A DNA stretch of 64,000 bases from a virus: the IMG/VR virus record IMGVR_UViG_3300032050_000010. One strand, given 5' to 3'. How positions within the stretch are numbered: position 1 is the first letter of the stretch; every line of letters begins with the position of its first letter. The translations under genes were made by a program, and so were the position numbers. Shown here in pieces: positions 40,143 through 60,527 of this stretch. The notes under the pieces were generated by a model. It was not told where the DNA came from, did not search any database, and saw only the letters and a list, made by a program, of their open reading frames with translations.

Positions 40143-40494
40143 AAGAGCTGAGATCTTTATAAAGGTTATTGCGTGGCGGATTGTATCCACCACGCTTAGC
40201 TTCTTTGTCATCTATCATTTTACAGGTAGCGTGGCGACAACAACGCACGCACTTGCAATCGGAACAAGCATAGGAATAGTGTCCCAGTGGCTGTTTGAGA
40301 TGACGTGGGACACGTTTATACGGAGCAGATTGAGACATGCCCTTTCAGGACAACAAGGTAGAATTGATCGGTTACTACGGTGGAGACGAGGCACACGCGA
40401 TGTCAGCGTGGACGAGCACCAGCAGGGATCTGACGGAGGAGAAGCGTGGAAGGATCCCAACTCTCCTGAAAATGCTGGCCGAGAATGGACATGA
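40135..40494 (+). CDS. Small membrane protein (DUF2061-like)
   Basis: KVIAWRIVST, two hydrophobic segments, FEMTW; 3' part overlaps thyX. Confidence 0.5.
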   Translation: MSRRAEIFIKVIAWRIVSTTLSFFVIYHFTGSVATTTHALAIGTSIGIVSQWLFEMTWDTFIRSRLRHALSGQQGRIDRLLRWRRGTRDVSVDEHQQGSDGGEAWKDPNSPENAGREWT

Positions 40495-41005
40495 GACACC
40501 CTTCGAGAAGTCAAGCCTGCACTTCCTGGTCACTGTCGATGCTGCAACTCACATCCATCTCCTGAAGCACAGGATCGGTGTCTCGATCAACGGCGAGTCA
40601 GCGCGGTACAAGGAACTTCGAGATGACAAGTATTACCTGCCGAAGGATTGGTCGCTCGAAGAGCAGGCGAAGTACATCGCCTTCATGGAGGACGCACTCA
40701 TGCGTTACCACGATGCTCTTGAACGCTTCGTCGAGGATGGCATGAGCCGCAAGCGTGCCAAGGAAAGTGCCCGGTTCTACCTGCCCTACGGCAACCAGAT
40801 CACGATGGACATCATGTTCAACTGGCGCTCCTTCCACCACTTCCTCGAGCTGCGGATGAAGCCAGATGCCCAGCGTGAAGTCCGTGAGTTATCAGAGCAG
40901 ATGCTCCAGCTTGTCCGTGACATTCCTGGTAACCCGTTCAAGCACACGCTAGAAGCGTTTGGTTATGTTGTAAAACCTAAAGAAATATTCTACCATAGTG
41001 TGTGA
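40337..41005 (+). CDS. thyX: Flavin-dependent thymidylate synthase (canonical)
   Basis: GHETPFE, KHRIGVSINGESARY, ESARFYLP, NWRSFHHFLELR, AQREVR. Confidence 0.93.
   Translation: MPFQDNKVELIGYYGGDEAHAMSAWTSTSRDLTEEKRGRIPTLLKMLAENGHETPFEKSSLHFLVTVDAATHIHLLKHRIGVSINGESARYKELRDDKYYLPKDWSLEEQAKYIAFMEDALMRYHDALERFVEDGMSRKRAKESARFYLPYGNQITMDIMFNWRSFHHFLELRMKPDAQREVRELSEQMLQLVRDIPGNPFKHTLEAFGYVVKPKEIFYHSV
40968..40996 (+). promoter_or_regulatory. Sigma70-like promoter for repair/nucleotide operon
   Basis: TTGTAA-N17-TACCAT just upstream of the MBD4-like gene. Confidence 0.5.
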
Positions 41006-41433
41006 ACGCACCTAAGTCACCCTACAACCTGATCCAAGAGACAGTGCAGTACGATCCATGGCGCGTCCTGGTCGTCTGTATTTTCTGTAATCTAACAAAG
41101 CGTGTCGTCGCAGAGCCCTACATGTGGCAGTTCTTCGATCGATGGCCCACAGCATCGGCAGCATCCCATGCAGATCCTGCTGAGATCCGTGACATGATCG
41201 CTATTCTTGGTCTTGCAGATCGACGAAGCAAGACGCTGGTCAAGCTATCGCAGGCGTACGTGCAGTGGAACGGGGTTGATGTAAGATCTCTACCAGGCGT
41301 GGGTGAGTACGCTGCAGCAGCTTACGACATCTTCTGCCTGCACCGCTGGGCACAGATCCCAGAGCCCAAGGACGGCGCGTTGAAGAACTACTGGAAGTGG
41401 ATTAACGGAAAGGAGGAAAGTCAAATTGCCTGA
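41002..41433 (+). CDS. MBD4-like HhH mismatch (G:T/G:U) DNA glycosylase
   Basis: SPYNLIQETVQYDPWRVLVVCIFCNLT, LGLADRR, LPGVGEYA, YDIFC, PKDGALKNYWKW parallel the MBD4 catalytic domain. Confidence 0.85.
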   Translation: MNAPKSPYNLIQETVQYDPWRVLVVCIFCNLTKRVVAEPYMWQFFDRWPTASAASHADPAEIRDMIAILGLADRRSKTLVKLSQAYVQWNGVDVRSLPGVGEYAAAAYDIFCLHRWAQIPEPKDGALKNYWKWINGKEESQIA

Positions 41434-42235
41434 AGGACCTGAAGTCAAGATTGTATCTGAGTCGCTTGGCCGCGCGTTGCAAGGTCGGGCAATCGTCGGC
41501 ATCAACTATTTGGGCGGCCGCTACGCGAAGCACGGGCCTCCTGAGGGACACGCAGAAATTTCATCGGAGCTGCCCCAGAATGTGTCTGTCACATCTTGTA
41601 AGGGCAAGTTTATATACCTAACACTCCAAAATAATTGGGTAATCTGGAACACTCTGGGTATGACGGGTGGCTGGTCAAAGACGCAGCACAAACACAGCAG
41701 AGCGCAGTTTCTACTCGACGACGGGACATCTGTCTTCTTCAACGATCCACGCAACTTCGGCACGCTGAAGTACGTCCACGGGCTTGATGCACTTCAAGAG
41801 AAGTTGGATGAGCTTGGGCCCGACATGCTGGCAGAGGATGTTTCGGACGACTTGTTCATCAGACGGATGCGGAAGAAGAATAAGCGTGTGATCACAGAGA
41901 GCCTGATGGACCAGAAGGTGATCTGCGGTGTGGGCAACTACCTCAAATCTGAGAGCCTCTATTTCGCCGGGATCTCCCCTATGCGTCATGTCAACACCAT
42001 GACAGATGAAGAGCTGTCTCGGCTCAACCAGACGATTAAGGCAGTCATCCGTGCATCCTACCAGACAGGCGGCGCGACGATCTACACATTCCAGGGGTTC
42101 GACGGCGAGAAAGGACAATACAGTCGCCGCTTCGCTGTTTATAATCAAGACAAGGATCCTAAAGGGTGGGATGTGAAATCCTTCACCTCACCCGAGGGCC
42201 GCACAACATTCTGGGTTCCAGAGGAGCAAACATGA
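41426..42235 (+). CDS. Fpg/Nei-family DNA glycosylase/AP lyase, zincless finger
   Basis: N-terminal PEGPEV, KGK, LGMTG, DPRNFG, LMDQKVICGVGNYLKSESL, GRTTFWVP without Cys4. Confidence 0.92.
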   Translation: MPEGPEVKIVSESLGRALQGRAIVGINYLGGRYAKHGPPEGHAEISSELPQNVSVTSCKGKFIYLTLQNNWVIWNTLGMTGGWSKTQHKHSRAQFLLDDGTSVFFNDPRNFGTLKYVHGLDALQEKLDELGPDMLAEDVSDDLFIRRMRKKNKRVITESLMDQKVICGVGNYLKSESLYFAGISPMRHVNTMTDEELSRLNQTIKAVIRASYQTGGATIYTFQGFDGEKGQYSRRFAVYNQDKDPKGWDVKSFTSPEGRTTFWVPEEQT

Positions 42236-42459
42236 GTTACAGGCTATCAGATGAGACAATTGGGCAGATCGCTAAGCTTCTACAGGTCGCGATCATCACG
42301 GGCACTGACATCGTTGACAACCTTCGCACGATCCGCCTACGTGTAGGTGACGGTGAGCAGCTTGAGCCTACTGCAGATTACCTCGAGAACTTCGAGCGCA
42401 ATCTCAACAGGATGATCGAGTCACTCGCAGAGCAGACGAACACCAACCAGAGTGAGTGA
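42232..42459 (+). CDS. Hypothetical protein
   Basis: ATG 42232 with RBS GAGGAG, coupled to Nei stop. Confidence 0.6.
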   Translation: MSYRLSDETIGQIAKLLQVAIITGTDIVDNLRTIRLRVGDGEQLEPTADYLENFERNLNRMIESLAEQTNTNQSE

Positions 42460-42836
42460 CAATGGATAAGCTCGACCAGATGTTCCAGATGCGTAAGGAG
42501 TTCATGGCAGCGTTGTCTGCTCATGTCCCTAATGCATACCCACAGCAACCGATCGATCTCAGCAGCAAGCAGTCACAGCAGCACTTCAGAGATCTTGCTC
42601 TCCGCGGTGTTGAGGAGATCTTCGAGGCGCTCCAGCACTTGAAGAACACGAAGCCGCATCGTGTGACTGACATCACAGATCCAGTCGATGTTGAGGCGTT
42701 CAAGGAAGAGATGGTCGATGCTTTCAACTTCTTCTTCACGCTTCTAATCCTGATGGACGTCGATGCTGAAGATCTCTACGAGGTCTTCAAGAAGAAGGAT
42801 CAGATCATTCACGACCGCATCAAGAACAGGTACTAA
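42456..42836 (+). CDS. All-alpha dNTP pyrophosphatase (dimeric dUTPase/T4 gp56 dCTPase-like)
   Basis: EEIFEAL, KPHR, EEMVDAFNFF, C-terminal KKKDQIIHDRIKNRY. Confidence 0.78.
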   Translation: MTMDKLDQMFQMRKEFMAALSAHVPNAYPQQPIDLSSKQSQQHFRDLALRGVEEIFEALQHLKNTKPHRVTDITDPVDVEAFKEEMVDAFNFFFTLLILMDVDAEDLYEVFKKKDQIIHDRIKNRY

Positions 42837-43786
42837 TGGACATCAAGAAGATACTACAGCGTCAGAAGGAGTTCTCTAATCTCTTCTATGACTCGTCTAA
42901 CTTTGACGACGACAAGCGTGAGGAGATGACAAAGTCGTTCGCTCTGGCACTCCACGCTGAAGTGGCGGATCTCGTCAGCTCGATCAACTTCAAAGATCAC
43001 CACGCAAATCGACGGACACCGGATCGGGAGAAGATCCTGTACGAGTCGATTGACGTGATGAGGTACCTCCTGGCGATCATGAATGTGTGGGGGTATGAAG
43101 CTGATGAAGTTGAGACAGCTTTCAACGACAAGGACACCTTCCTGCACATGCGTCATCGAGTTGAAAACGCAAAGTGGGACGGTCGTCCTGTACTAATTGT
43201 CGATGTCGATGATGTCATCGCACACTTTAGGAAGGATTACTTTGAGTGGCTTCGAGACAGTCATGACATTGATATTCCTCTTGATTATCCTGAGTACTAT
43301 GCGTCCTCTCCCCTGAAGGAGCGCGGGATCAATCCAGAGGCGTCGTTCAAGGATTTCATCAGCGAGCGTCGTCTCCGTAAAATTGAGCCAATCGAAGGTG
43401 TCCGTGCAGTTCTAAAAGCAGCCCAAGAGCTAGGCTTCTGGGTGCAGTTGCTGACTGCTCGTCCTGACCAGAACTTGATCTGTCTCTACGACACCTACCA
43501 CTGGATCTCTGAGATGGGCGTACCATTTGATGGCCTCGCCTTCAGCGGCGAGAAGTACAGGTGGATCGTGCAGAGCCAGTTCTACGGACACGTTGCAGCA
43601 TGCATCGATGACTCACCAAAGCACGCTGCAGAGTACGCAAATCACGGTTTGCTTGTACTCTCACCTGCATTGTCTTATAATGCATCATTGGCTGGCACTT
43701 CTGGTGTCACTCGATACGAAGATCCTGATCAACTACTTCTACAACTAATTCAAATCAAAGAGGAAATCAATGCCACAAGACACTAA
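42836..43786 (+). CDS. Fusion: all-alpha NTP pyrophosphatase domain + HAD 5'(3')-deoxynucleotidase
   Basis: N-terminal HAEVADL...YESIDVMRY; C-terminal VDVDDVI, LTARP, CIDDSPKH. Confidence 0.75.
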   Translation: MDIKKILQRQKEFSNLFYDSSNFDDDKREEMTKSFALALHAEVADLVSSINFKDHHANRRTPDREKILYESIDVMRYLLAIMNVWGYEADEVETAFNDKDTFLHMRHRVENAKWDGRPVLIVDVDDVIAHFRKDYFEWLRDSHDIDIPLDYPEYYASSPLKERGINPEASFKDFISERRLRKIEPIEGVRAVLKAAQELGFWVQLLTARPDQNLICLYDTYHWISEMGVPFDGLAFSGEKYRWIVQSQFYGHVAACIDDSPKHAAEYANHGLLVLSPALSYNASLAGTSGVTRYEDPDQLLLQLIQIKEEINATRH

Positions 43787-44720
43787 TCTCAAGCCCATCA
43801 CTCTTCCTATGGCGATCCGTTTCGGCGAGGAGCCAACTACCGAGTTCGTCAACAGCCTTGATGCACTTAAGCTCGAGCTTGTTGATGCACCAGATCCCAA
43901 GTCGATCCGCCAGGCTGTCTACTGCTTCGTTAAGTCGACCTGGGCAGACCAGCACGTTCCTTACAAGGACGCAACTGAGGCTGAGCTTAGCAAGACACTT
44001 GAGGACGTCTTCGCAGGTCGTGCGCTCCCAGCAGCGATGGAGCTGATCGGTCTCACCTTCCTCGTGGGTGGCATCGACACGCAGACTGTAACGCATCTCA
44101 TCCGTCACCGTGCAGGTTCCTTCGCAGCGCAGTGCACCGGTGACCGTTGGCTTTCACACGAGCGCAGCCTTGTTCCTGGTTCCATCCAGAACAGCCCGGA
44201 GTTCTACGCTCGCTGGCAGGCACACGTCCAGGAGGCAAAGCAGCTCTACACGGACATGGTCGACTCCAAGCAGATCAGTCTGATGGATGCTCGTCACGTC
44301 CTTCCTAAGTGCCTCGAGACGTTCTACTACATGCGTATGAACATCCGCGACGCATTTGGTTTCATCAAGCAACGCCAGGACAAGCAGATCCAGCCTGAGG
44401 AGGACAACATGCTTGCAGCGCTCATGGCACGCGAGATCCTTCGCGTCTTCCCTGAGGCACACGTGGCAATCAACCTCCGTGAGCCTGCCTGGCACTACAT
44501 CAAGACGTTCCGGAATGGCACTGGTACGAACCTCTACTGGCCCGATGAGGACAGCGAGAAGCACCTCACCTACCACCCAGACGACACGATCTATCAGGCA
44601 ACACGTGACGACATGAACGGCACAGGTGGTGGTGTCCCTCACTTCCGGAAGCTCTGGAACGAGACACTTGCTGAGATTGACACGATCGTCACCAACTACA
44701 AGAACACACGGGGCATTTAA
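43770..44720 (+). CDS. Divergent ThyX-fold flavoenzyme (second paralogue)
   Basis: THLIRHRAGSFAAQCTGDR, DARHVLP, FIKQR...QPE; motif Ser replaced by Cys122. Confidence 0.8.
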   Translation: MPQDTNLKPITLPMAIRFGEEPTTEFVNSLDALKLELVDAPDPKSIRQAVYCFVKSTWADQHVPYKDATEAELSKTLEDVFAGRALPAAMELIGLTFLVGGIDTQTVTHLIRHRAGSFAAQCTGDRWLSHERSLVPGSIQNSPEFYARWQAHVQEAKQLYTDMVDSKQISLMDARHVLPKCLETFYYMRMNIRDAFGFIKQRQDKQIQPEEDNMLAALMAREILRVFPEAHVAINLREPAWHYIKTFRNGTGTNLYWPDEDSEKHLTYHPDDTIYQATRDDMNGTGGGVPHFRKLWNETLAEIDTIVTNYKNTRGI

Positions 44721-48081: not shown

Positions 48082-48087
48082 TCAACT

Positions 48088-50917: not shown

Positions 50918-50942
50918 ACACCGCACCGGGCGCATGTAGTAT
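50914..50942 (+). promoter_or_regulatory. Sigma70-like promoter
   Basis: TTGAAC-N17-TAGTAT before NDT gene. Confidence 0.5.
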
Positions 50943-50959
50943 TGCTTAGAGGCAATAAC

Positions 50960-52232: not shown

Positions 52233-53213
52233 ATGAAGATACTCATTACTGGTCACCGAGGTTTCATTGCATCTAACCTTCCACCTGCATTCGCTGATCT
52301 CGATCACGAAGTTGTCGATCCCAGCCAGCTCAGGCTGACACACAAGCTGCCGACAGGTGAGCACTGCGTCTATCGTAACAGTGAGGATGACTGGGCGCGC
52401 GAGATCAAGCGGCTCGGCGTCGATGTAGTTGTCCACAATGCAGCAGCAGTGGGCACCGATGTCGTCGCGCTCAATCCTAGCGATGCGACGCTGTCCAACG
52501 TGACAGGAACCTACAACATCTGCCGCGCTGCTGAGAAAGCACGCGCAGCCGTCCTCTACCTCGGAACGACAGTCATCTATAACACAGATCTGTATCAGGG
52601 CTCCTGGATCGCTGAGCGCTCCTCGCACGGCCCACAGACGCTCTACGGATCTCTGAAGCTGGCAGGTGAGTACATCGTCCGTGCACACAGCACGAAGTGG
52701 TCGATCGTCCGGCCCCTCTTCTGCTACGGCGGCGTGGGTGACAACAACTCACTGATCGCGAAGGGGTTCTTCGGCGCTGCACACGGCAAGGAGAAGATCG
52801 ACATGTTCCTCGATCCCAAGAAGATCAAGGATTACATGCGCGTCGAGGATTTCTGCGATGCGGTGGCAACTGTGGTCGATAAGGAGCTCTGGAACGATGA
52901 CTGGAACGTCGCTGCGGAGACGCCTGAGAACACAGGCAGGATCGTCGAGATGATGAGTGAGATCTCGTGCAAGGATCTAAAGGGTGTGGTAAAATGGCAC
53001 CCAGGAACCGACTACTTGGGTAACCATCGACTAAGCTCACAGAAGTTCAGGGATGCTTCTGGTTGGACACCAAAGTTCGACCTATATGGTGGCTTGGAAA
53101 AGTCGTGGAATGACATCCAGCGTAATCTGGGTTCCACGGATTATAATCCTCTGCGATATCTGGAAGATGCCAAGAAGCGCGGCATCGACCTCACACAATT
53201 CTTCAACCGGTGA
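52233..53213 (+). CDS. NAD-dependent NDP-sugar epimerase/dehydratase (divergent extended SDR)
   Basis: ITGHRGFIA, HNAA, GTTVIY, YGSLK, RPLFCYG. Confidence 0.85.
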   Translation: MKILITGHRGFIASNLPPAFADLDHEVVDPSQLRLTHKLPTGEHCVYRNSEDDWAREIKRLGVDVVVHNAAAVGTDVVALNPSDATLSNVTGTYNICRAAEKARAAVLYLGTTVIYNTDLYQGSWIAERSSHGPQTLYGSLKLAGEYIVRAHSTKWSIVRPLFCYGGVGDNNSLIAKGFFGAAHGKEKIDMFLDPKKIKDYMRVEDFCDAVATVVDKELWNDDWNVAAETPENTGRIVEMMSEISCKDLKGVVKWHPGTDYLGNHRLSSQKFRDASGWTPKFDLYGGLEKSWNDIQRNLGSTDYNPLRYLEDAKKRGIDLTQFFNR

Positions 53214-53219: not shown

Positions 53220-56200
53220 ATGAGTATCATTCGACCTCCGGATCGGTTTGTGGGCCTTCATGCCCACTCCGGTTTCTCGACCATGGACGGCCTCGGCTAT
53301 CCCGCCCAGCACATCGACTTCGTGCTGAAGAACGGCATGGATGCCTGGGCGTTGACTGACCACGGCAACGGCAGTGGCCTTGCCCACGCACAGTCACATG
53401 CCAAGAAGATGAAGAAGGCGGGCCAGAAGTACCGTCAGCTGAACGGGGTCGAGTTCTACTTCGTTCCATCACTGAAGAACTGGGCAGAGCAGTATCAAGA
53501 TCACAAGGACGCAGTCGCTGCTGCTCGCTCTGAGAAGAAGTCGAAGGAGGCGACTGACATCGACGCCGACGATGAGGCAGGTGCGGGTCACATCATCGAG
53601 AATGAGGATGAGACAAAGGACGCGTCATCACTCGAAGTGAAGGATGACGAGTGGAAGCGTCGCTACCACCTCGTTGTGATTGCTAAGGATAAGCGTGGCC
53701 TGTCCAACCTCTTCACGCTGGTCAAGCGGTCATTCAAGGAGGGGTACTATCGTTTCCCTCGGATTGACTTCGACATGCTCAAGCAGCACGGTGAAGGGCT
53801 TGTCGTCAGCACAGCCTGCATCGGTGGCATCATGGCGAACCGCGTCCTCCGCGGACAGGCGATGCACAAGTCAGATGCTGAGATCCAGCACGAGCTCAAG
53901 AACCTGACGGATCGGTTTGTGGACGCCGTCGGCCTCGAGAACTTCAACCTCGAGATCCAGTTCAACAAGCTGCAGGCACAGCACGACGTCAATCGGCACC
54001 TGATCGATCTGCACAAGAGCACAGGCGTCCCGCTGGTGGCGACCTGCGATAGTCACTATCCCACTCCTGACAAGTGGAAGACGCGCGAGCTCTATAAGAA
54101 GCTGGCGTGGATGAACGCAAAGGAGGAACCCAAGCCCCTCCCAGCATTCGATGAGCTGAAGTGCGAGCTCTACCCAAAGAACGCCGAGCAGATGTGGGAG
54201 GAGTTCAATCGACATACTGATGCCTACACATTCTATCAAGGCAGCGAGGAGCTGGTTCGAGATGCGATCGAGCGGACGCACGACATCGCATGGCAGCAGT
54301 GTGAGGACGTCTGGGTCGATACAGGCGCCAAGCTCCCAGTTTTCGCCACGCCTGAGAAGACAGAGTTCCAGCAGCTGGTGGATCTCGTCAAGGAGCGGAT
54401 GGGCGAGATGGGGCTGCATGAAAATCCCGAGTACATGGCGCGTGTGAAGGAGGAACTCTCAGACATCAAGCACCTGGGACACGCATCTTACTTCCTCACA
54501 ATGTACAAGATCTTCCACCGTGCTAAAGAGCGGACGCTCCTCGGGCCAGGTCGTGGATCGGCACCCGGTTCTCTCGTCAACTACATCCTTGGGATTACAC
54601 AGATTGATCCACTTCCGTTCGGCCTCCTCTGGAATCGCTTCCTTGGTCGGCATCGTGTGTCTTGGCCCGATATCGACTCCGATGCTGGTGATCGTGACGT
54701 TCTTATTGACGCGGCACGTGAGCTCTTCGGTGACGATGCTGTCATTCCCGTCTCCAACTTCAACACCCTGAAGCTGAAGTCGCTGGTGAAGGACGTCGCG
54801 AAGTTCTTCAACGTTCCGTTCGATGAGGTCAATGCGGTGACAGGACCGCTTCAGGACGAGGTCATGCCTCACGCTAAGGATGATGACCAGGAGAAGTCGG
54901 TCTTCGTCCTCAAGCACGATGACTGCATGAAGTACTCACCTGCTTACAATGCATTCATGACGAAGTACCCCGAGGTGGAGGAGCACGTTAATGCGCTCTT
55001 CATGGAGAACCGTTCGATCGGTCGTCATGCAGGCGGCGTCCTCGTTGCAGAACCCAAGGCGTTGGCTGAAGGCATGCCCATCATCGGTGTTCGCGGTGAA
55101 TTGCAGACGCCGTGGACAGAAGGTATGAACTTCCGCAACCTGGAGGACAACGGCTTCCTCAAGTTCGACTTCCTCGGCCTAACACTGCTCAAGGACGTAG
55201 AGAACTGCATCAAGCGGATCCTGATCAAACAGGGTGTCAAGAACCCGACATTCAGCCAGATCAAGGATTTCTTCGATGAGCATCTCAACTGCCGAACGGT
55301 CAAGCAGGATGATCAGCAGGTTTGGAAGCATGTCTATCACGAGGGTCGGTTCGTCGGTGTCTTCCAGTTCACAGCTGACGGTGCACGTAAGTTTTGCCTC
55401 GATGCGAAGCCCACAAACATCGGTGAGCTGGCAGCACTGACAGCAATCTACCGACCAGGCCCACTGAAGGCAAACGTCCACAAGCTGTATGTCCAGGCAA
55501 AGCGGGATGCCTCGAAGATCAAGTACGACCATCCAGTCATCCAGGAAGTGCTAGGGCCCACGTTCGGTTACGTTGTCTTCCAGGAACAGTTCATGATGCT
55601 GGCGCAGAAGCTGGCAGGGTTCTCTCCTGGTGAGGCTGACCAGCTCCGCAAGACGCTGGTCAAGAAGTCGCTGGACACGCTGGGCAAGAAGTCATCTGAG
55701 AAGGAGGCAGCGCGGAAGCAGTTCATCGACGGTGCTCTGGCACTGCACGGTGTGCCTGAGAAGGTGACTGGCCCGCTCTGGGACACGATCGAGGCTTTCT
55801 CGGTGTACGGCTTCAACAAGTCGCACTCCGTGTCCTACGCGATCGATTCCTACTATGCAGGATGGCTCCACACGCACTACGAGAAGGAGTGGTTGGCAAC
55901 AATCCTGCAGTCTGAGACAGGCAATCCCAAGGGCCTGGCAAAGGCTATTGCCGAGATCAAGGCAATCGGTTATAAGTTCTCGCAGGTCGACATCAACTAC
56001 TCAGGTACCGAGTGGACGTACTCTGATGAGATCCAGGCGTTCGTTCCGCCGCTGACATCTGTCAAGGGCCTAGGCGACTCAGCAGTGAGTGAGATCATGG
56101 AGAACAGGCCCTACCGTGCGCTGGATGACCTCCTGTTCGATGCAGAAGGTGAGTGGCGCCACTCCAAGCTGAACAAGAGCTGCCTTGAGTCGCTGATCCT

Positions 56201-56783
56201 CACTGAGAGCCTGGGTTCGCTGCAGGAGTTCAAGGACGAGCGTCTCAACAATCACAATCAGCTCCACAAGATGATCATCGAGAACTATGACACGCTCCGC
56301 AAGGGTCGCACAGGAATGACCAAGACGGCCACCAAGAAGTGGGTAAAGGAGCACGGTAAAGAGCCCGTGATCATCGACCAGCTGATCGAGGCAACAGCGG
56401 ATGTCCAAGATTGGAACCGCTACGAGAAGATCAAGAACTTCGTGGAGATCTTGACCACGGCGTCAGAAGAACTACTATTCCCACCCACCGTGATGGCAAA
56501 GATTGATCGTTCTAACGTCCCGTCTGCAATGCAGATCTCACCAGGATCGAAAGCAGTTGTCTGGTTCTGTGCGCAGGACTGGGTCAAGAAGCAGACAAAG
56601 AACGGCAAGACATTCTACACAGCATTCGCTGTTGACAATAACAGTGACACTGCAAGGATCCGTGTGTGGGGCACATTTAAAGAAGAGCCCGAGCGATACA
56701 CTATGTGGCTAGCTGAGGTAGAATATGATGCTAACTGGGGTATGTCAACCTCAGCAATGAAAATGCGAAAGATCGAGGTGTAA
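53220..56783 (+). CDS. dnaE: DNA polymerase III alpha (family C)
   Basis: PHP motifs HAHSGFS.DG, LTDHG, GVEFY, CDSHY; GRGSAPGS; PDIDSD; KFDFLGL; YGFNKSHS. Confidence 0.96.
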   Translation: MSIIRPPDRFVGLHAHSGFSTMDGLGYPAQHIDFVLKNGMDAWALTDHGNGSGLAHAQSHAKKMKKAGQKYRQLNGVEFYFVPSLKNWAEQYQDHKDAVAAARSEKKSKEATDIDADDEAGAGHIIENEDETKDASSLEVKDDEWKRRYHLVVIAKDKRGLSNLFTLVKRSFKEGYYRFPRIDFDMLKQHGEGLVVSTACIGGIMANRVLRGQAMHKSDAEIQHELKNLTDRFVDAVGLENFNLEIQFNKLQAQHDVNRHLIDLHKSTGVPLVATCDSHYPTPDKWKTRELYKKLAWMNAKEEPKPLPAFDELKCELYPKNAEQMWEEFNRHTDAYTFYQGSEELVRDAIERTHDIAWQQCEDVWVDTGAKLPVFATPEKTEFQQLVDLVKERMGEMGLHENPEYMARVKEELSDIKHLGHASYFLTMYKIFHRAKERTLLGPGRGSAPGSLVNYILGITQIDPLPFGLLWNRFLGRHRVSWPDIDSDAGDRDVLIDAARELFGDDAVIPVSNFNTLKLKSLVKDVAKFFNVPFDEVNAVTGPLQDEVMPHAKDDDQEKSVFVLKHDDCMKYSPAYNAFMTKYPEVEEHVNALFMENRSIGRHAGGVLVAEPKALAEGMPIIGVRGELQTPWTEGMNFRNLEDNGFLKFDFLGLTLLKDVENCIKRILIKQGVKNPTFSQIKDFFDEHLNCRTVKQDDQQVWKHVYHEGRFVGVFQFTADGARKFCLDAKPTNIGELAALTAIYRPGPLKANVHKLYVQAKRDASKIKYDHPVIQEVLGPTFGYVVFQEQFMMLAQKLAGFSPGEADQLRKTLVKKSLDTLGKKSSEKEAARKQFIDGALALHGVPEKVTGPLWDTIEAFSVYGFNKSHSVSYAIDSYYAGWLHTHYEKEWLATILQSETGNPKGLAKAIAEIKAIGYKFSQVDINYSGTEWTYSDEIQAFVPPLTSVKGLGDSAVSEIMENRPYRALDDLLFDAEGEWRHSKLNKSCLESLILTESLGSLQEFKDERLNNHNQLHKMIIENYDTLRKGRTGMTKTATKKWVKEHGKEPVIIDQLIEATADVQDWNRYEKIKNFVEILTTASEELLFPPTVMAKIDRSNVPSAMQISPGSKAVVWFCAQDWVKKQTKNGKTFYTAFAVDNNSDTARIRVWGTFKEEPERYTMWLAEVEYDANWGMSTSAMKMRKIEV

Positions 56784-56784: not shown

Positions 56785-57693
56785 TTGAAGTTCAATCTAA
56801 AGACAGTTGTGCTAGAAGGTGTGGATTGCAGCGGCAAGACAACACTGTTTAGGAGCTTGCATCGTGCAACAGGCTTCAAGTGGAATATCCACGATCGAAG
56901 TGCTCTCTCGATGCTCTGCTATGCAGTCATGTACGGAAGAGATGTTGACCACTGGCGGCAGCTTCTCTTGGAAGAGATCAGCGATCTGAACAATGTGATC
57001 GTTGTGCTCATGCCCCCACTGGCCACCATCAAGGATCGCCTTGCTGAAAGAGGCGACGAGTTTCAAGATCAAGTGACGATTGAGAAGTTGTACACCATCT
57101 TTGAGGATGAGGTTTCACGTCTCAGCGCATACCCTAACGTCTTAGTTTGCGCGCAATCAAAAGCTTCTAGCGATGACATCGCACGGTGGCTGCTAAACTA
57201 CGAGCGGCAGACATACAGTCGACTTGCAGAGATGACGCACGATCATGCGAGGATCAAGCTGTCTGGTGAAGCGCCTTTCCTAAAGATGACGTGGGAAGAC
57301 ACTGACTTCAAGACGCTCAGCACAAAGGCACTCTTCTACGAACCTGAGCTTGAGTACTACGAAGCAACACGCAAGAAGCTTATTGAAAAGATCCAAGCAG
57401 AGCTGGCTGGACAGAATGAGTACGAGATGAAGCAGGATCTCAAGTCGCGACGGTTTGTCATGACACAGGATAGTTGCATCTCCTATGCACACTTCATGTA
57501 TCGTGGCGGCGTGCTTCACGCCAACATCGTGTGCAGATCTTCTGAGGTGTCGCGTATCTTCCCAAATGACATCCACTTCATCGGTCACATGGGTCAGACA
57601 GCCCGACGTGAGCTCGGCCTCACCGTTGAGACACCCGTGAGGTTTAATCTCACTCTCGACTCAGCACATGTAATCTTTCAACCTACGCATTAA
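56785..57693 (+). CDS. Fusion: dNMP kinase + minimal thymidylate-synthase-fold domain (dCMP type)
   Basis: LEGVDCSGKTT and HDRS kinase motifs; SRR...DSC231...RS(251)SEVSRIFPND262...SAHV. Confidence 0.8.
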   Translation: MKFNLKTVVLEGVDCSGKTTLFRSLHRATGFKWNIHDRSALSMLCYAVMYGRDVDHWRQLLLEEISDLNNVIVVLMPPLATIKDRLAERGDEFQDQVTIEKLYTIFEDEVSRLSAYPNVLVCAQSKASSDDIARWLLNYERQTYSRLAEMTHDHARIKLSGEAPFLKMTWEDTDFKTLSTKALFYEPELEYYEATRKKLIEKIQAELAGQNEYEMKQDLKSRRFVMTQDSCISYAHFMYRGGVLHANIVCRSSEVSRIFPNDIHFIGHMGQTARRELGLTVETPVRFNLTLDSAHVIFQPTH

Positions 57694-57710: not shown

Positions 57711-58703
57711 ATGAAGAGAGCATTAGTAACGGGCGGCGCCGGCTTCATTGGGTCAAATCTGACGCACGCGCTTGTCGATGATGGCTGGACAGTTGACGTA
57801 GTAGACGACATGTCGAACGGCCACCTCAACCTTCTTGATAATTTGAGCTATCGAGTTTTTCTGCCGGGCATGGCAGAAATCTATGAAGCACAGAAGCAGA
57901 GAACTTCGAAAGAAGTTTACGTGCATGAGTGTGACTTTGCACACCCAGTCATTCTAGACAGAATTGCTCGGAAGCAATACGACGTCGTCTTCCACCAGGC
58001 AGCTGTTCCGCAAGTTTCCTACTCTGTCGAGCAGCCTACGAAGACGACAGACGTCAATCTTCTGAGAAGCATTGAGCTTCTCCATTCTTGCGTCGGCAAC
58101 GTCGACAAGGTGGTTGTTGCATCATCATCAGCTGTCTATGGTAATACGGAGACACTGCCGACAACTGAAGAGACGCCACGTAACCCAAGATCTCCATACG
58201 GCCTCCAGAAGAGTGCTCTTGAGGATTTCTGTCGACTATTTGGTGAGCTCTACGATCTAGACACCGTCTGTCTGCGTTATTTCAACGTTTTTGGAGCAGG
58301 CCAGTACGGCGACTCACCTTATTCCACAGCAGTGTCTGCATGGTGTGATGCAATCAAACACGGACGAACACTTAGATCAGATGGTGACGGATCGCAGTCC
58401 CGTGACATGTGTCATGTTGACAATGTTGTAAGTGCCAATATTCTTGCTGCCAAGACGCCGAACCGCCTCATGGGCAAAGGGTACAACATCTGCTGCGGTG
58501 AGCGGACGACAAACCTTGAGATCCTCCAGCACCTCACAGGAGCATTTCCAACAGTTGAAGTTCGTCACGCTCCCTGGCGTCCAGGTGATGTTAAGCACAC
58601 ACTGGGTGACTGGTCAGCAGCAAATCGTGACTTCGGATACCAACCAATAGTTAAGTTCTGGGATGGGCTTGAGAAGACGCTCGCCTGGTGGGAGCTCAAG
58701 TAA
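57711..58703 (+). CDS. NAD-dependent UDP-sugar 4-epimerase-like SDR
   Basis: TGGAGFIGS, HQAA, SSSAVYG, YGLQK, LRYFNVFG, RPGDVKHT. Confidence 0.92.
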   Translation: MKRALVTGGAGFIGSNLTHALVDDGWTVDVVDDMSNGHLNLLDNLSYRVFLPGMAEIYEAQKQRTSKEVYVHECDFAHPVILDRIARKQYDVVFHQAAVPQVSYSVEQPTKTTDVNLLRSIELLHSCVGNVDKVVVASSSAVYGNTETLPTTEETPRNPRSPYGLQKSALEDFCRLFGELYDLDTVCLRYFNVFGAGQYGDSPYSTAVSAWCDAIKHGRTLRSDGDGSQSRDMCHVDNVVSANILAAKTPNRLMGKGYNICCGERTTNLEILQHLTGAFPTVEVRHAPWRPGDVKHTLGDWSAANRDFGYQPIVKFWDGLEKTLAWWELK

Positions 58704-59257
58704 TGCGCATCCCACCAACATTCACTGTCTTCTGTGGGCCTATGATGTCGTCTAAGACGACACGACTGATCGGCGCGGTCGACCGCTTTCGATATCAGAA
58801 CCAGCGTGTCCTTGCATTTAAACCAAAGATGGATAGAAGGTATGCAAAAGAAGAGATCACTACACACAACGGTGGAAAACTTGAAGCTCTCATTGTTAGC
58901 ACTGGTGATGAGATACTACGCCACGTTGACGTATATGAACCAGACGTTGTAGCAGTTGACGAAGCTTTCATGATTGACGGCTCTGCAGACGCACTCATTC
59001 AGATCTACCGTAGAGGCGTGTCTGTCGTTGTGTCGTCGATCGAGATGTCTGCCAGCTGCAACTCTTTCCCAGAGATTGAGAAGATCCTTCCCTGGGCGAC
59101 AAAGGTTGAGAAGTGCACTGCCGTCTGTGTTGTATGCGGCGAGGATGCACCGTACACACAGAAGAAGATCAATGACATCGCAGAGATCACAGTTGGGGGT
59201 TCTGAGCTCTATGAGCCTCGATGCTGGTCACATCATGCGACCGCGCGCGAAGCGTGA
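58703..59257 (+). CDS. tdk: Thymidine kinase (TK1 type), divergent motifs
   Basis: GPMMSSKTT, FKPKMDRRY, VDEAF, CVVCG...YEPRCWSH. Confidence 0.85.
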   Translation: MRIPPTFTVFCGPMMSSKTTRLIGAVDRFRYQNQRVLAFKPKMDRRYAKEEITTHNGGKLEALIVSTGDEILRHVDVYEPDVVAVDEAFMIDGSADALIQIYRRGVSVVVSSIEMSASCNSFPEIEKILPWATKVEKCTAVCVVCGEDAPYTQKKINDIAEITVGGSELYEPRCWSHHATAREA

Positions 59258-59277
59258 TACATTAGTATCGAGGTAGC

Positions 59278-60114
59278 ATGCTAGATCCTAACAGCATCAA
59301 TCTGGTCATTTATCATGCGAGTTGCACAGATGGATTTGGAGCAGCTTGGGCAGCGTGGAAGTTACTTGGCGACCGTGCCGAATACTACGCTGCAAAGTAC
59401 GGAGAAGCACCGCCAGATGTGTCTGGAAAGAATGTCATAGTCGTAGATTTCTCATATGATAATGCTACTACCAAGCGCTTGATGAAGGAGGCAAAGGGGT
59501 TTTTCGTCCTTGACCACCACAAGTCGGCGATGGTAGAGCTCCACGATGTGTCCTGCACACACTTCGACATGAACCACAGCGGTGCAATGCTGGCCTGGAA
59601 GTTCTTCCATCCCGGCAAGGAAGCCCCACGGATGATCAAGCACATCGAGGATCGTGACCTCTGGAAGTGGGAGATCCCGTACTCGAAGGAGTTCTCAGCA
59701 GCATTTGACATGGTTCCCTTCGACTTCGAGGAATTTGATAAGTACCTCGACGACTCAGCAGTCGACGATGCTCAGGAGCGTGGTGCCTACATCCTCGCAT
59801 ATTCTAAGACAGTGATCTCCAAGATCTCCAAGCACGCAGCACCACGCAAGCTGAACGGCAAGGATGTCCTGGTGGTGAACTCACCCCACTGGATGTCCGA
59901 GATCGGAAATGCGCTGTCACCTAAGTGCGACTTCGCGGTGATCTGGTACTACGACCACGACACACGCCAGGTGAAAGTGAGCCTCCGCGCTCACCATGAT
60001 GATGCTGATGTGAGCGAGGTCGCCAAGAAGTACGGCGGAGGAGGACATCGCAAAGCTGCAGGTTTCGCTCTTGCGCCCAACATCAGTATTGAGACAATCT
60101 TCGACAAGGAGTAG
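59278..60114 (+). CDS. DHH/DHHA1 phosphoesterase
   Basis: YHASCTDG, LDHHKS, EDRDLW, SLR, GGGGHRKAAGF. Confidence 0.9.
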   Translation: MLDPNSINLVIYHASCTDGFGAAWAAWKLLGDRAEYYAAKYGEAPPDVSGKNVIVVDFSYDNATTKRLMKEAKGFFVLDHHKSAMVELHDVSCTHFDMNHSGAMLAWKFFHPGKEAPRMIKHIEDRDLWKWEIPYSKEFSAAFDMVPFDFEEFDKYLDDSAVDDAQERGAYILAYSKTVISKISKHAAPRKLNGKDVLVVNSPHWMSEIGNALSPKCDFAVIWYYDHDTRQVKVSLRAHHDDADVSEVAKKYGGGGHRKAAGFALAPNISIETIFDKE

Positions 60115-60116
60115 AG

Positions 60117-60527
60117 ATGCGTCCAGGCTGGGATGAAGTGTGGATGAACATCGCACGTGAAGTATCACGCAGGTCAGCAGACGACAAGTACAAAGTTGGA
60201 ACTGTGATAGTCACTGGAGACAACACACAAGTGCTGTCGCTAGGATACAACGGCGACCACGCAGGTGGCCCAAATTGCAGAGAGTCGAGTGACCCTGGCG
60301 AGTCAGGTTTTATCCATGCCGAGATGAACGCGCTGATCAAGCTTGACTACAATAACCTAAAGCGACGTGTTATGTACGTTACGTTGTCGCCCTGTAAGAT
60401 GTGCGCTAAAGCAATCATCAATGCAGGTATCAACGAGCTCGTGTACGGCGAAGATTATAGAGATCTCAGCGGTATTGACATTCTCACAGGCGCTGGGATA
60501 AAAGTTAGAAAAATAACTCAAACTTAG
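60117..60527 (+). CDS. dCMP deaminase family protein
   Basis: LGYNG, HAEMNAL, SPCKMC. Confidence 0.9.
   Translation: MRPGWDEVWMNIAREVSRRSADDKYKVGTVIVTGDNTQVLSLGYNGDHAGGPNCRESSDPGESGFIHAEMNALIKLDYNNLKRRVMYVTLSPCKMCAKAIINAGINELVYGEDYRDLSGIDILTGAGIKVRKITQT

What the first reader, a model, noticed from the sequence alone, without database searches (positions are those of the whole stretch)
40337..60527. Candidate new cytosine-modification system: precursor remodelling, sugar enzymes and a dedicated mismatch-repair arm around a DnaE replicase
Seen: besides an ordinary dTMP route (ThyX, dCMP deaminase, TK), the region carries a kinase/TS-fold fusion with the dCMP-type Asp, a second altered ThyX, two dCTPase/dUTPase-type domains plus a HAD nucleotidase, an NDT-family enzyme, two NDP-sugar SDRs bracketing dnaE, and MBD4-like plus Nei glycosylases. 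Established: T4 substitutes cytosine using dCTPase gp56, the TS-fold hydroxymethylase gp42 and dNMP kinase gp1, then glycosylates; MBD4 repairs deaminated 5mC/5hmC. Inference: this phage replaces C with a C5-modified, possibly sugar-bearing base by chemistry unlike T4, since both putative modifying enzymes look stripped of folate contacts, and repairs the deamination products itself. The actual base cannot be read from sequence.
Basis: partly seen in the sequence, partly recalled or inferred. Interest (0 to 1): 0.88.

Follow-up and report, generated by a model that had tools for sequence, protein, structure and literature searches.

The report
Phage pyrimidine-modification core beside DnaE
A large uncultured phage carries, next to its DNA polymerase gene, a nucleotide kinase fused to a stripped-down thymidylate-synthase-like enzyme that reads cytosine, plus an altered ThyX, and this trio recurs in unrelated phages, so it probably makes a modified cytosine for the phage's DNA, though no chemistry has been measured.

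Summary
Most are ordinary precursor supply and base-excision repair. Three are not ordinary.

- A 302-aa protein directly after dnaE is a YorR/TMPK-like kinase fused to a 160-aa minimal thymidylate-synthase (TS) fold. It keeps the catalytic Cys and the phosphate arginines, and has Asp at the ThyA Asn177 position.
- A highly conserved ThyX paralogue has His53 replaced by Leu and Ser88 replaced by Cys.
- An MBD4-type glycosylase is present.

The trio of ThyX-like protein, kinase and mini-TS sits beside the replicative polymerase in 82 of 82 related viral contigs. It also occurs unfused in two PolB phages and in cultured Geobacillus phage GR1.

The nearest known system is the flavin-dependent 5-hydroxy-dCMP pathway (AfhB, RB69 gp48; published 2025-26). 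That pathway likewise pairs a TS homologue with a YorR-like kinase and glycosyltransferases next to the polymerase. Membership is not established, because the Asp169-to-Asn signature is absent in this phage.

The sugar step is only suggestive. SDR2 resembles UDP-HexNAc 4-epimerases. Glycosyltransferases lie elsewhere in this contig, and inside the module only in one relative.

Verdict: a new variant of a known kind; the modified base is unknown. First readers of this scan noted the same fusion in another genome.

The parts
40337..41005 (+). Canonical flavin-dependent thymidylate synthase ThyX (ordinary dTMP route)
   Evidence: Pfam Thy1 E 1.7e-36, 126 bits. Motif K-H-R...S-A-R-Y.
41002..41433 (+). 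MBD4-type HhH-GPD DNA glycosylase (stand-alone catalytic domain)
   Evidence: phmmer E 6e-31 to the human or mouse MBD4 glycosylase domain, residues 3-135. The catalytic Asp aligns (P-K-D against P-E-D). Homologues occur in 14 of 20 large related contigs.
41426..42235 (+). Fpg/Nei-family glycosylase/AP lyase
   Evidence: Pfam H2TH 1.4e-19 and Fapy_DNA_glyco 4e-17. NCBIfam fpg 1.3e-47, below its cut-off. N-terminus is P-E-G-P-E-V after the start codon.
42456..42836 (+). All-alpha (MazG-like) NTP pyrophosphatase; candidate supplier of dNMP
   Evidence: phrog_12184 'nucleotide pyrophosphohydrolase' 6.4e-14. Pfam PRA-PH is weak. No PDB sequence match. Present in 25 of 82 loci, a count limited by flank length.
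42836..43786 (+). dUTPase_2-type NTP pyrophosphatase fused to an NT5C (HAD) 5'-deoxynucleotidase
   Evidence: Pfam dUTPase_2 6e-07 (residues 2-94) and NT5C 1.5e-08 (residues 117-302).
43770..44720 (+). ThyX-like flavoprotein paralogue with altered active site (core part 1)
   Evidence: Thy1 4e-20. ThyX fold, Z 15.9 to Mtb ThyX over 213 residues, model pLDDT 82.5. The motif R-H-R-A-G-S-F-A-A-Q-C-T-G-D-R is invariant. T. maritima His53 aligns to Leu86 and Ser88 to Cys122. Present in 20 of 20 large relatives beside a canonical ThyX.
50942..51403 (+). Nucleoside 2-deoxyribosyltransferase-family enzyme
   Evidence: Pfam Nuc_deoxyrib_tr 1.3e-16. PDB 6evs 5e-10, with the catalytic Glu aligned. Present in 53 of 82 loci. 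Homologous NDTs sit in the GR1 and L099 modules.
52233..53213 (+). Extended SDR (SDR1), divergent NDP-sugar epimerase/dehydratase/reductase type
   Evidence: Pfam Epimerase 2e-26 and RmlD_sub_bind 1.7e-18. It reaches no NCBIfam equivalog cut-off.
53220..56783 (+). DnaE-type replicative DNA polymerase (PHP, NTPase, finger, HhH)
   Evidence: Pfam DNA_pol3_alpha 2e-49, finger 1.7e-38, PHP 2.6e-26. It lies directly upstream of the fusion in 82 of 82 loci.
56785..57693 (+). YorR/TMPK-like dNMP kinase (residues 1-142) fused to a minimal TS fold (residues 143-302) (core parts 2 and 3)
   Evidence: Model pLDDT 94. Kinase domain Z 12.6; TS fold Z 11.8 to AfhB. Invariant R222, R223, C231, R251, S252, D262, H295 map to ThyA R126, R127, C146, R166, S167, N177, H207. 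Homodimer model score 0.89 against a best control of 0.00.
57711..58703 (+). Extended SDR (SDR2), UDP-hexose/HexNAc 4-epimerase-like
   Evidence: Pfam Epimerase 1.8e-50. PDB WbgU and WbpP, E 1e-38 to 1e-47. Adjacent to the fusion in 59 of 82 loci.
58688..59257 (+). Thymidine kinase
   Evidence: Pfam TK 8.8e-36. Present in 68 of 82 loci.
59278..60114 (+). DHH/DHHA1 phosphoesterase
   Evidence: Pfam DHHA1 4.8e-07 and DHH 3.3e-05. Present in 54 of 82 loci.
60117..60527 (+). dCMP deaminase
   Evidence: Pfam dCMP_cyt_deam_1 9.4e-24. Present in 69 of 82 loci.

Best explanation
The stretch is the nucleotide-supply and replication operon of a large uncultured phage that replicates with a DnaE-type polymerase. 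Most of its genes do ordinary work: RNR, ThyX, dCMP deaminase, TK, NTP pyrophosphatases, a 5'-nucleotidase, NDT and BER glycosylases.

Embedded in the operon is a conserved three-part core that always lies beside the replicative polymerase gene:
- a ThyX-like flavoprotein paralogue;
- a YorR/TMPK-like dNMP kinase;
- a 160-residue minimal thymidylate-synthase fold.
In this phage the last two are fused.

Proposed mechanism:
1. An all-alpha NTP pyrophosphatase yields dCMP (inferred).
2. The mini-TS dimer binds dCMP through R222'/R223'/R251/S252. It reads the cytosine N3/N4 face with Asp262, and Cys231 attacks C6 (inferred from conserved residues).
3. A C5 substituent is installed without folate. 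The most likely substituent is a hydroxyl delivered by reduced flavin and O2, as in AfhB and RB69 gp48. The ThyX-like flavoprotein, or a host reductase, would supply flavin chemistry (inferred, weakest step).
4. The fused kinase makes the diphosphate. Host NDK makes the triphosphate, and DnaE incorporates it (inferred).
5. Glycosylation on DNA may follow, using host UDP-sugars re-tailored by SDR2 and SDR1 and glycosyltransferases encoded elsewhere (speculative).
6. The MBD4-type glycosylase would remove the deaminated 5-substituted uracil opposite G (inferred).
For: 1. Fold and residues.
- The model has pLDDT 94.
- The TS domain aligns to AfhB (9iqu) at Z 11.8, 148 residues, rmsd 2.8; to MilA at Z 11.2; to ThyA at Z 11.1.
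- The family profile hits only AfhB (E 0.005) and T4 dCMP hydroxymethylase (E 0.05) in the PDB.
- hhalign to RB69 gp48 gives E 5e-5 over 134 columns, to T4 gp42 E 1.5e-5, and to ThyA E 2.4e-4.
- Cys231, R222/R223, R251/S252, H295 and Asp262 (at the Asn177 position) are invariant in 41 of 41 homologues.
- The protein atlas places the domain among viral clusters in which some members (17% and 52% in the two named clusters) carry PF00303.

2. Dimer.
- The homodimer model scores 0.89, against a best of 0.00 among 3 controls.
- The mark was reached by 20 of 30 proteins solved as pairs of one chain and by 1 of 23 solved as single chains.
- The runs agree in at least 94% of contacts, and the partner pLDDT is at least 91.
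- The interface includes R222 and R223.
- TS dimers are solved structures, so the pass may reflect likeness to them.

3. Loss of folate parts.
- The domain ends 7 residues after the His207 equivalent.
- The loop before the catalytic Cys is deleted.
- The Asp169 position varies: E in 19, N in 11 and D in 11 homologues.
- Pfam PF00303 fails to detect the domain.

4. Gene linkage.
- DnaE is directly upstream in 82 of 82 loci, and gene order is fixed.
- The ThyX-like gene is in 20 of 20 large contigs.
- Unfused kinase, mini-TS and ThyX-like genes lie beside a PolB gene in L099 and L100.
- The same three lie beside DnaE in cultured Geobacillus phage GR1: mini-TS hhalign probability 94%, kinase 96.7%.

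5. Precedent. The known 5-hydroxycytosine clusters of DLP3, RB69 and RL38JI each pair the TS homologue with a YorR/TMK-like kinase and GT-B transferases next to the polymerase gene (PMC13326640).

6. Sugar hints.
- SDR2 resembles the UDP-HexNAc 4-epimerases WbgU and WbpP.
- Relative L014 has five glycosyltransferase genes 3-9 kb downstream of its kinase/mini-TS gene.
- One of those five is homologous (E 5e-39) to the GT1 gene at the left end of this contig.
Against: - No chemical or read-level evidence shows that the DNA is modified.
- The Asp169-to-Asn signature of proven 5hodCMP synthases is not met here. This phage has Glu254, and only 11 of 41 homologues have Asn.
- Sequence distance to AfhB, T4 gp42 and ThyA is about equal.
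- The substrate specificity of the pyrophosphatases is unknown.
- A full ordinary dTMP route and similar accessory genes also occur in phages with canonical DNA. SPbeta, for example, has YorR and, from my own knowledge, YorS and YorL.
- There is no glycosyltransferase in the window. None was found among the 40 largest proteins scanned elsewhere in the contig.
- SDR2 is absent from about 23 of 82 loci.
- GT1 genes occur in only 5 of 20 large relatives.
- No NTP_transferase was found.
- Fpg/Nei enzymes are known to excise 5-hydroxycytosine (my own knowledge: Hatahet et al. 1994). A phage-encoded copy therefore fits poorly with naked 5hoC.
- C-containing 6-mer palindromes are mildly under-represented (observed/expected 0.87). 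This hints that some sites are still exposed to restriction.
- A Dam-type methylase offers a separate protection route.
Confidence: 0.55

Rival explanations
1. This is ordinary precursor supply only. The mini-TS is a degenerate nucleotide-binding or regulatory domain of a thymidylate/dNMP kinase, or it has a minor salvage activity. The ThyX-like protein is just a divergent thymidylate synthase. Virion DNA is canonical apart from Dam methylation.
For: - Every other gene in the block has an ordinary role.
- SPbeta-type phages carry YorR-like kinases with canonical DNA (plus my own knowledge).
- GR1 has the ThyX-like protein as its only Thy1 homologue, so that protein could be its working thymidylate synthase.
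- C-containing palindromes are mildly avoided.
- A Dam-type methylase is present.
Against: - A dead domain would not keep Cys, both Arg pairs, Ser, Asp and His invariant across 41 homologues that are down to about 36% identical over the full-length protein.
- It would also not keep a TS-type dimer interface.
- The ThyX-like protein coexists with a high-scoring canonical ThyX in 12 of 20 fragmentary contigs, and in all 5 of the first set of large contigs searched.
- It has lost the folate-stacking His53.
- The trio tracks the polymerase gene across DnaE and PolB phages.
Confidence: 0.22
2. The base that is changed is thymine or uracil, not cytosine. The ThyX-like flavoenzyme makes a C5-modified dUMP (for example a hydroxymethyl or other one-carbon derivative). 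The mini-TS/kinase processes or phosphorylates that product. The MBD4-like enzyme has another role.
For: - The ThyX-like protein keeps the dUMP phosphate arginines (R112, R114, R175, R202) and the ThyX fold.
- It is the most conserved protein of the module, with 69% mean column identity.
- It is translationally coupled to the mini-TS in GR1 and L099.
- NDT and 5'-nucleotidases prefer dU/dT-type substrates in known members (my own knowledge).
Against: - Asp at the Asn177 position is the established determinant for cytosine in TS-fold enzymes (PMC13326640). It is invariant here.
- TK, canonical ThyX and dCMP deaminase argue that dTTP is made and used.
Confidence: 0.13
3. The sugar enzymes (SDR1, SDR2 and the distant glycosyltransferase locus) do not act on DNA. 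They glycosylate virion proteins or remodel host surface glycans. Any cytosine modification is left unglycosylated.
For: - No glycosyltransferase lies in the window.
- The glycosyltransferase clusters of relatives lie 75-100 kb from the module and carry several extra SDRs, as polysaccharide loci do.
- First-stage notes describe a ~17 kb locus with GT2 and fcl next to tail-fibre genes (not checked here).
- L099, L100 and many loci carry the trio without SDR2.
Against: - SDR2 sits immediately after the kinase/mini-TS gene in 59 of 82 loci.
- L014 places five glycosyltransferases inside the module.
- GR1 has a glycosyltransferase three genes from its kinase.
- No Wzx-type flippase was found in five relatives that carry glycosyltransferase clusters.
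- All proven 5hoC phages glycosylate the base (PMC13326640).
Confidence: 0.45

Closest known systems
Flavin-dependent 5-hydroxy-dCMP pathway of phages HY126 (AfhB; PDB 9iqu, 9iqc), RB69 (gp48 + gp45 kinase), DLP3 and RL38JI (PMC13326640)
   Same: - A TS-fold enzyme with the catalytic Cys and Asp at the Asn177 position.
- The C-terminal folate-closing segment is lost, and the protein ends at S-A-H-V.
- It is paired with a YorR/TMK-like nucleotide kinase and placed beside the DNA polymerase gene.
- AfhB is the best structural match (Z 11.8) and the best profile match (E 0.005).
   Different: - The domain here is about 160 aa, against 217-238 aa.
- It is fused to the kinase.
- The loop before the Cys is deleted.
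- The Asp169-to-Asn signature is absent in this phage (Glu254).
- There are no arabinose-5-phosphate isomerase, sugar kinase/uridylyltransferase or GT-B genes in the window.
- A conserved ThyX-like partner is present that the known systems lack.
- The polymerase is DnaE, not the T4-type PolB.
T4 hydroxymethylcytosine system (gp56 dCTPase, gp42 dCMP hydroxymethylase, gp1 dNMP kinase, alpha/beta-glucosyltransferases)
   Same: - The overall logic matches: an NTP pyrophosphatase, a TS-fold enzyme with Asp at the specificity position, a kinase, with dCMP deaminase and TK alongside.
- The genes lie next to the polymerase.
   Different: - gp42 is a full-size folate enzyme of 246 aa.
- The kinase belongs to a different family.
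- No T4-type glucosyltransferase family match was found, but the control for that search did not ring, so this is inconclusive.
MilA/MilB of mildiomycin biosynthesis (TS-fold CMP hydroxymethylase + NDT-family hydroxymethyl-CMP N-glycosidase)
   Same: A TS-fold cytosine-nucleotide enzyme co-occurs with an NDT-family protein. MilA matches the model at Z 11.2. An NDT gene is in the module in this clade, in GR1 and in L099.
   Different: MilA/MilB act on ribonucleotides in an antibiotic pathway. The NDT here looks like a true deoxyribosyltransferase (6evs, E 5e-10).
Flavin-dependent thymidylate synthase ThyX and the UMP/dUMP methylase PolB
   Same: The ThyX-like protein has the ThyX fold (Z 15.9 and 14.8), the R-H-R motif and the phosphate-binding arginines.
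   Different: - His53 is replaced by Leu, Ser88 by Cys and Glu86 by Ala.
- There is a two-residue insertion before the Arg90 equivalent.
- There is a roughly 90-aa conserved C-terminal extension.
- It scores below the NCBIfam thyX cut-off.
- It coexists with a canonical ThyX.
MBD4 glycosylase domain (eukaryotic G:T/G:U/G:5hmU repair)
   Same: Full-length alignment at E 6e-31, with the catalytic Asp kept.
   Different: It is a stand-alone 143-aa phage protein without a methyl-CpG-binding domain. Its substrate is untested.

Membership tests
Thymidylate synthase / dCMP hydroxymethylase superfamily (TS fold) | Alpha/beta TS fold | tested here: met
   Residues 142-301 align to AfhB at Z 11.8 (148 aa, rmsd 2.8), MilA at Z 11.2 and ThyA at Z 11.1. 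Foldseek probability is 1.00 to many TS entries.
Thymidylate synthase / dCMP hydroxymethylase superfamily (TS fold) | Catalytic Cys (ThyA C146) and the phosphate-binding R126'/R127'/R166/S167 | tested here: met
   C231, R222, R223, R251 and S252 are invariant in 41 of 41 homologues. The mapping comes from hhalign to E. coli ThyA.
Thymidylate synthase / dCMP hydroxymethylase superfamily (TS fold) | Obligate homodimer across the central sheet | tested here: met
   Model only. Score 0.89 against a best control of 0.00. The mark was reached by 20 of 30 proteins solved as pairs of one chain and by 1 of 23 solved as single chains. Contact agreement is at least 94% and pLDDT at least 91. The interface includes 222-252 and 288-295. 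The pass may reflect likeness to solved TS dimers.
Thymidylate synthase / dCMP hydroxymethylase superfamily (TS fold) | Folate-binding elements (conserved D169, C-terminal closing segment, loop 130-143) and a match to Pfam PF00303 | tested here: not met
   The domain ends 7 residues after the H207 equivalent. The loop is deleted in the hhalign alignment. The D169 position is E/N/D. PF00303 matches 1 of 41 members at E 0.089 and finds nothing in the genome.
5hodCMP synthase (AfhB / RB69 gp48 type) | Asp at the ThyA N177 position (cytosine substrate) | tested here: met
   D262 is invariant. It aligns to the Asp of AfhB, RB69 gp48 and T4 gp42.
5hodCMP synthase (AfhB / RB69 gp48 type) | Asn at the ThyA D169 position (diagnostic residue in PMC13326640) | tested here: not met
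   This phage has Glu254. Across the family the position is E in 19, N in 11 and D in 11. The GR1 homologue has Asn (R-S-S-N).
5hodCMP synthase (AfhB / RB69 gp48 type) | Acidic residue at the ThyA L143 position | tested here: inconclusive
   The loop that carries L143 falls in an alignment gap. D229, two residues before the Cys, is D/E in 39 of 41 homologues.
5hodCMP synthase (AfhB / RB69 gp48 type) | Bound flavin and O2-dependent hydroxylation | not testable with these tools
   This needs purified protein.
5hodCMP synthase (AfhB / RB69 gp48 type) | Linked YorR/TMK-like nucleotide kinase | tested here: met
   The kinase is fused in cis. The N-terminal domain matches YorR at Z 12.5 and profile E 3.6e-10. 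Known clusters list YorR-like kinases.
5hodCMP synthase (AfhB / RB69 gp48 type) | Clustered DNA glycosyltransferases and NDP-sugar synthesis genes | tested here: not met
   None is in the window. No NTP_transferase was found in 5 records. A GT1 gene lies at the left end of the contig, and glycosyltransferases lie inside the module only in L014.
Flavin-dependent thymidylate synthase ThyX (for 43770-44720) | ThyX fold and the R-H-R motif with phosphate arginines | tested here: met
   Z 15.9. R112, H113, R114, R175 and R202 are invariant.
Flavin-dependent thymidylate synthase ThyX (for 43770-44720) | Folate-stacking His53, Ser88 of the ThyX motif, and the NCBIfam equivalog score | tested here: not met
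   His53 aligns to the invariant Leu86 and Ser88 to the invariant Cys122. The score is 51.7 bits against a cut-off of 87.9.
MBD4 glycosylase domain (for 41002-41433) | Full-length HhH-GPD domain of the MBD4 type with the catalytic Asp | tested here: met
   E 6e-31 over residues 3-135. P-K-D aligns to P-E-D.
T4-type hydroxymethylcytosine system | dCTP-specific pyrophosphatase that excludes dCTP | tested here: inconclusive
   Two all-alpha NTP pyrophosphatase domains are present. Their specificity cannot be read from sequence, and there is no PDB sequence match.

The most novel reading that the evidence does not exclude
The minimal TS fold cannot hold a cofactor of its own and works as one half of a two-protein pyrimidine C5-modifying enzyme. 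Its Cys activates dCMP, while the ThyX-like flavoprotein delivers the group. That flavoprotein has lost its folate-stacking His and gained an active-site Cys, and it is translationally coupled to the mini-TS in GR1 and L099. The product would be a DNA base different from 5mC, 5hmC and 5hoC. It would be present in a globally distributed uncultured phage clade, with about 400 protein clusters at 50% identity.
Probability: 0.2. Interest if true: 0.9.

Novelty: new variant of a known kind. Interest (0 to 1): 0.72.

Why it matters
Hypermodified phage DNA blunts restriction and CRISPR defences and has supplied enzymes for epigenetic sequencing.

The known cytosine routes use full-size TS homologues that Pfam recognises. 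The mini-TS family described here escapes PF00303, so surveys based on that model would have missed it. It defines a large family: 401 clusters at 50% identity, and at least 141 IMG/VR contigs.

The linkage of kinase, mini-TS and ThyX-like protein to two different polymerase families suggests a portable precursor-remodelling cassette.

A cultured carrier, Geobacillus phage GR1, makes the question directly testable at the bench.

Tried and rejected
- Pfam and PHROGs on the TS domain and on the conserved small ORFs gave nothing useful.
- tblastn of the whole fusion against 50,697 phage records found no match. The GR1 homologues appeared only with profile comparison.
- Palindrome statistics as a proxy for protected cytosines gave mild avoidance only (C-containing 6-mers observed/expected 0.87; GATC 1.06). 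This is inconclusive.
- The search for a host through bacterial and archaeal genomes returned only one full-length hit, in a MAG labelled Methanobacteriota, which gives no host assignment.
- The T4 beta-glucosyltransferase family search found nothing, but its control rang nowhere, so it says nothing.
- PF20706 (GT4-conflict) rings in all control genomes and is therefore not specific.
- Literature searches for a ThyX paralogue in phage DNA modification, and for phage GR1, found nothing relevant.
- I considered that the left-hand glycosylation locus described by other first readers is host DNA. Complete relative G001 carries similar glycosyltransferase clusters internally, so it is probably phage DNA. 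That locus lies outside the record I could read.

Full report
**Setting**

The window is bases 35652-99651 of a 163,948-bp IMG/VR viral record, which CheckV rates at about 49% complete. Genes in the finding all lie on the + strand with short gaps or overlaps, so they form one operon-like block. No cultured phage is close at the DNA level. The DnaE is at most about 30% identical to those of isolates.

**Observation**

Upstream of the finding lie RNR and ClpP. The genes are:

| Gene | Coordinates |
|---|---|
| Canonical ThyX | 40337-41005 |
| HhH-GPD (MBD4-type) glycosylase | 41002-41433 |
| Fpg/Nei | 41426-42235 |
| MazG-like pyrophosphatase | 42456-42836 |
| dUTPase_2 + NT5C fusion | 42836-43786 |
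| ThyX-like protein | 43770-44720 |
| NDT | 50942-51403 |
| SDR1 | 52233-53213 |
| DnaE | 53220-56783 |
| Kinase/mini-TS fusion (302 aa) | 56785-57693 |
| SDR2 | 57711-58703 |
| TK | 58688-59257 |
| DHH | 59278-60114 |
| dCMP deaminase | 60117-60527 |

- The glycosylase at 41002-41433 really is of the MBD4 type. It matches the human MBD4 catalytic domain at E 6e-31 over its whole length, with the catalytic Asp kept.
- Fpg/Nei keeps the N-terminal Pro-Glu.
- 44764-50917 holds eight ORFs that only close relatives share. This stretch is an insert, not part of the module.

**The fusion protein**

Pfam sees only a P-loop. An alignment of 41 homologues that are down to about 36% identical gave an AlphaFold model with mean pLDDT 94.

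- Residues 1-142 are a dNMP kinase. They match deoxyadenosine kinase at Z 12.6 and SPbeta YorR at Z 12.5.
- Residues 142-301 are a TS fold. The top match is the phage HY126 dCMP hydroxylase AfhB (9iqu) at Z 11.8, 148 aligned residues, rmsd 2.8. MilA scores Z 11.2 and ThyA Z 11.1; these are ties.
- A profile of the domain alone hits only AfhB (E 0.005) and T4 dCMP hydroxymethylase (E 0.05) in the PDB.
- hhalign gives RB69 gp48 E 5e-5 over 134 columns, T4 gp42 E 1.5e-5 over 63 columns, and E. coli ThyA E 2.4e-4 over 57 columns.
- The ThyA alignment maps R126/R127/C146/R166/S167/D169/N177 onto R222/R223/C231/R251/S252/E254/D262.
- All of these except position 254 are invariant in the family. Position 254 is E in 19, N in 11 and D in 11 homologues.
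- The domain stops 7 residues after the His207 equivalent, as AfhB and gp48 do, and lacks the loop before the Cys. PF00303 does not detect it.
- The protein atlas nevertheless puts it among viral clusters in which some members (17% and 52% in the two named clusters) carry PF00303.
- A homodimer model scored 0.89, against a best control of 0.00. The mark was reached by 20 of 30 proteins solved as pairs of one chain and by 1 of 23 solved as single chains. Contact agreement was at least 94% and pLDDT at least 91. The interface uses the TS sheet and R222/R223, as in real TS. Because TS dimers are solved, this shows likeness rather than proof.

**The ThyX-like protein**

- It belongs to a large, very conserved family with 69% mean column identity. 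The motif R-H-R-A-G-S-F-A-A-Q-C-T-G-D-R is invariant.
- Aligned to T. maritima ThyX, it keeps R78/H79/R80, R147 and R174. It has Leu for the folate-stacking His53, Cys for Ser88 and Ala for Glu86.
- Its model (pLDDT 82.5) has the ThyX fold: Z 15.9 to Mtb ThyX and Z 14.8 to the UMP/dUMP methylase PolB.
- It scores below the NCBIfam thyX cut-off.
- All 20 large related contigs carry it. Twelve of the 20, although fragments, also carry a high-scoring canonical ThyX. So it is a non-redundant paralogue.

**Linkage**

- In 82 IMG/VR loci with a homologue of the fusion, dnaE is always directly upstream.
- Gene order is fixed: Nei, small ORF, MazG, dUTPase_2/NT5C, ThyX-like, NDT, (SDR1), DnaE, fusion, (SDR2), TK, DHH, dCMP deaminase, SOD_C-like protein.
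- MBD4-like genes are in 14 of 20 large contigs, and an SDR is in 20 of 20.
- A search of 1.8 billion representative proteins found 401 clusters with the mini-TS domain. Most are about 300-aa fusions, but some are 165-190 aa stand-alone proteins.
- Two stand-alone examples lie in phages with a family-B polymerase.
  - L099 reads: TMK-like kinase, NDT, HD nucleotidase, ThyX-like (42% identical to ours, same Q-C-S-G-D motif), mini-TS, UDG-PolB.
  - L100 reads: Thy1, small ORF, TMK-like kinase, mini-TS, PolB.
- The only isolate with the ThyX-like protein is Geobacillus phage GR1, at 46% identity.
  - There, the 151-aa 'hypothetical protein' that overlaps the ThyX-like stop codon is a mini-TS (hhalign probability 94%, E 1e-7). 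It has Cys, R-S-S-N and Asp.
  - The 145-aa 'P-loop NTPase' is the kinase (probability 96.7%).
  - A nitroreductase, NDT, an HD protein, a glycosyltransferase and DnaE are neighbours.
- The trio therefore moves as a unit with the replicative polymerase across three phage lineages. In this clade the kinase and mini-TS have fused.

**Comparison with what is known**

In 2025-26, TS homologues that hydroxylate dCMP at C5 with a flavin and O2 were described: AfhB of HY126, RB69 gp48, DLP3 gp80 and RL38JI gp216 (PMC13326640).

- Their clusters each contain a YorR/TMK-like 'nucleotide kinase' and GT-B glycosyltransferases, and they abut the polymerase gene.
- The present system has the same logic and is nearest to that family by structure and by profile.
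- It fails the paper's diagnostic Asp169-to-Asn residue in this phage. It is a third smaller, and it brings a ThyX-like partner.
- I therefore say it works like that system, but I do not file it as a member.

**Sugar arm**

- SDR2 is 1e-38 to 1e-47 from the UDP-HexNAc 4-epimerases WbgU and WbpP. It follows the fusion in 59 of 82 loci.
- SDR1 is a divergent extended SDR.
- No glycosyltransferase is in the window, and none was found among the 40 largest other proteins scanned.
- A GT1 gene lies at the extreme left end of the contig. Other first readers describe a 17-kb glycosylation locus beyond it, which I could not read.
- Relatives G001 (complete, 284 kb), G002, G005, G012 and G016 have GT1 (and, in G001 and G002, GT2) clusters far from the module. 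These five lack a Wzx-type flippase.
- The five records searched for a sugar-1-phosphate nucleotidyltransferase (this contig, G001, G002, G005 and L014's contig) have none.
- In L014, five glycosyltransferase genes lie 3-9 kb downstream of the kinase/mini-TS gene. One of them is homologous (E 5e-39) to our left-end GT1.
- This is suggestive, not conclusive. The trio also exists without any visible sugar gene (L099, L100).

**Verdict**

A cytosine C5 modification made at the dNMP level and channelled by a fused kinase is the best reading (about 0.55).
- Hydroxylation is the leading guess for the chemistry (about 0.3).
- Glycosylation of DNA is possible (about 0.35).
- A dedicated repair role for the MBD4-like enzyme is plausible.
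- Nothing shows what base is in the virion.
- The system is a new variant of a recently described kind, and phage GR1 offers a direct test.

Noticed in passing
window 60840-61541: A 233-aa protein whose C-terminal half matches the Fe/Mn superoxide dismutase C-terminal domain (E 3.7e-15). It is conserved downstream of dCMP deaminase in 62 of 82 related loci. Its N-terminal half has no family match. It could bear on oxygen or flavin chemistry in the module.
   Followed up: partly
window 44764-50917: Eight ORFs without Pfam families are inserted between the ThyX-like gene and NDT. One is a 553-aa protein with a weak PHROG 'structural protein' match. Only the closest relatives share them.
   Followed up: partly
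L014:13725-19840: In a relative, five glycosyltransferase genes lie 3-9 kb downstream of the kinase/mini-TS gene: GT4-conflict/GT1, GT1, GT2, GT29-like and Glyco_trans_1_2. The intervening genes are MazG, dCMP deaminase, a PD-(D/E)XK nuclease and two unassigned ORFs of 157 and 156 aa.
   Followed up: partly
L084 (Geobacillus phage GR1, OK896991) 7158-17590 and 23306-24538: A cultured phage carries unfused kinase, ThyX-like and mini-TS genes beside DnaE, together with a nitroreductase, NDT, an HD protein and a glycosyltransferase. Further on lie an amidoligase and a gamma-glutamylcyclotransferase. The record annotates the mini-TS only as a hypothetical protein.
   Followed up: partly
L088:13050-13877 (genome 131050-131877, outside the window): A D12-class (Dam-like) N6-adenine DNA methyltransferase (E 1.7e-38). 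GATC is frequent and not avoided in the contig (observed/expected 1.06).
   Followed up: partly
L003:5085-10004: In one relative the dnaE gene is called as three ORFs of 995, 118 and 368 aa, where L002 has one of 1195 aa. This suggests an inserted element or a split polymerase.
   Followed up: no
L099:7760-10636: A 958-aa family-B DNA polymerase with an N-terminal uracil-DNA glycosylase domain lies directly after a stand-alone mini-TS gene.
   Followed up: no
window 30140-36955: A short family-A polymerase-like protein (391 aa), a gp32-like SSB, RecA, a 5'-3' exonuclease and a DnaB-like helicase precede RNR. The phage therefore has a PolA-like gene in addition to DnaE.
   Followed up: no
L090:12689-13657 (genome 162689-163657, right end of the contig): A di-haem cytochrome c peroxidase gene sits at the contig end. 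It may be host flank (the record is classed as a provirus) or a phage auxiliary gene.
   Followed up: no
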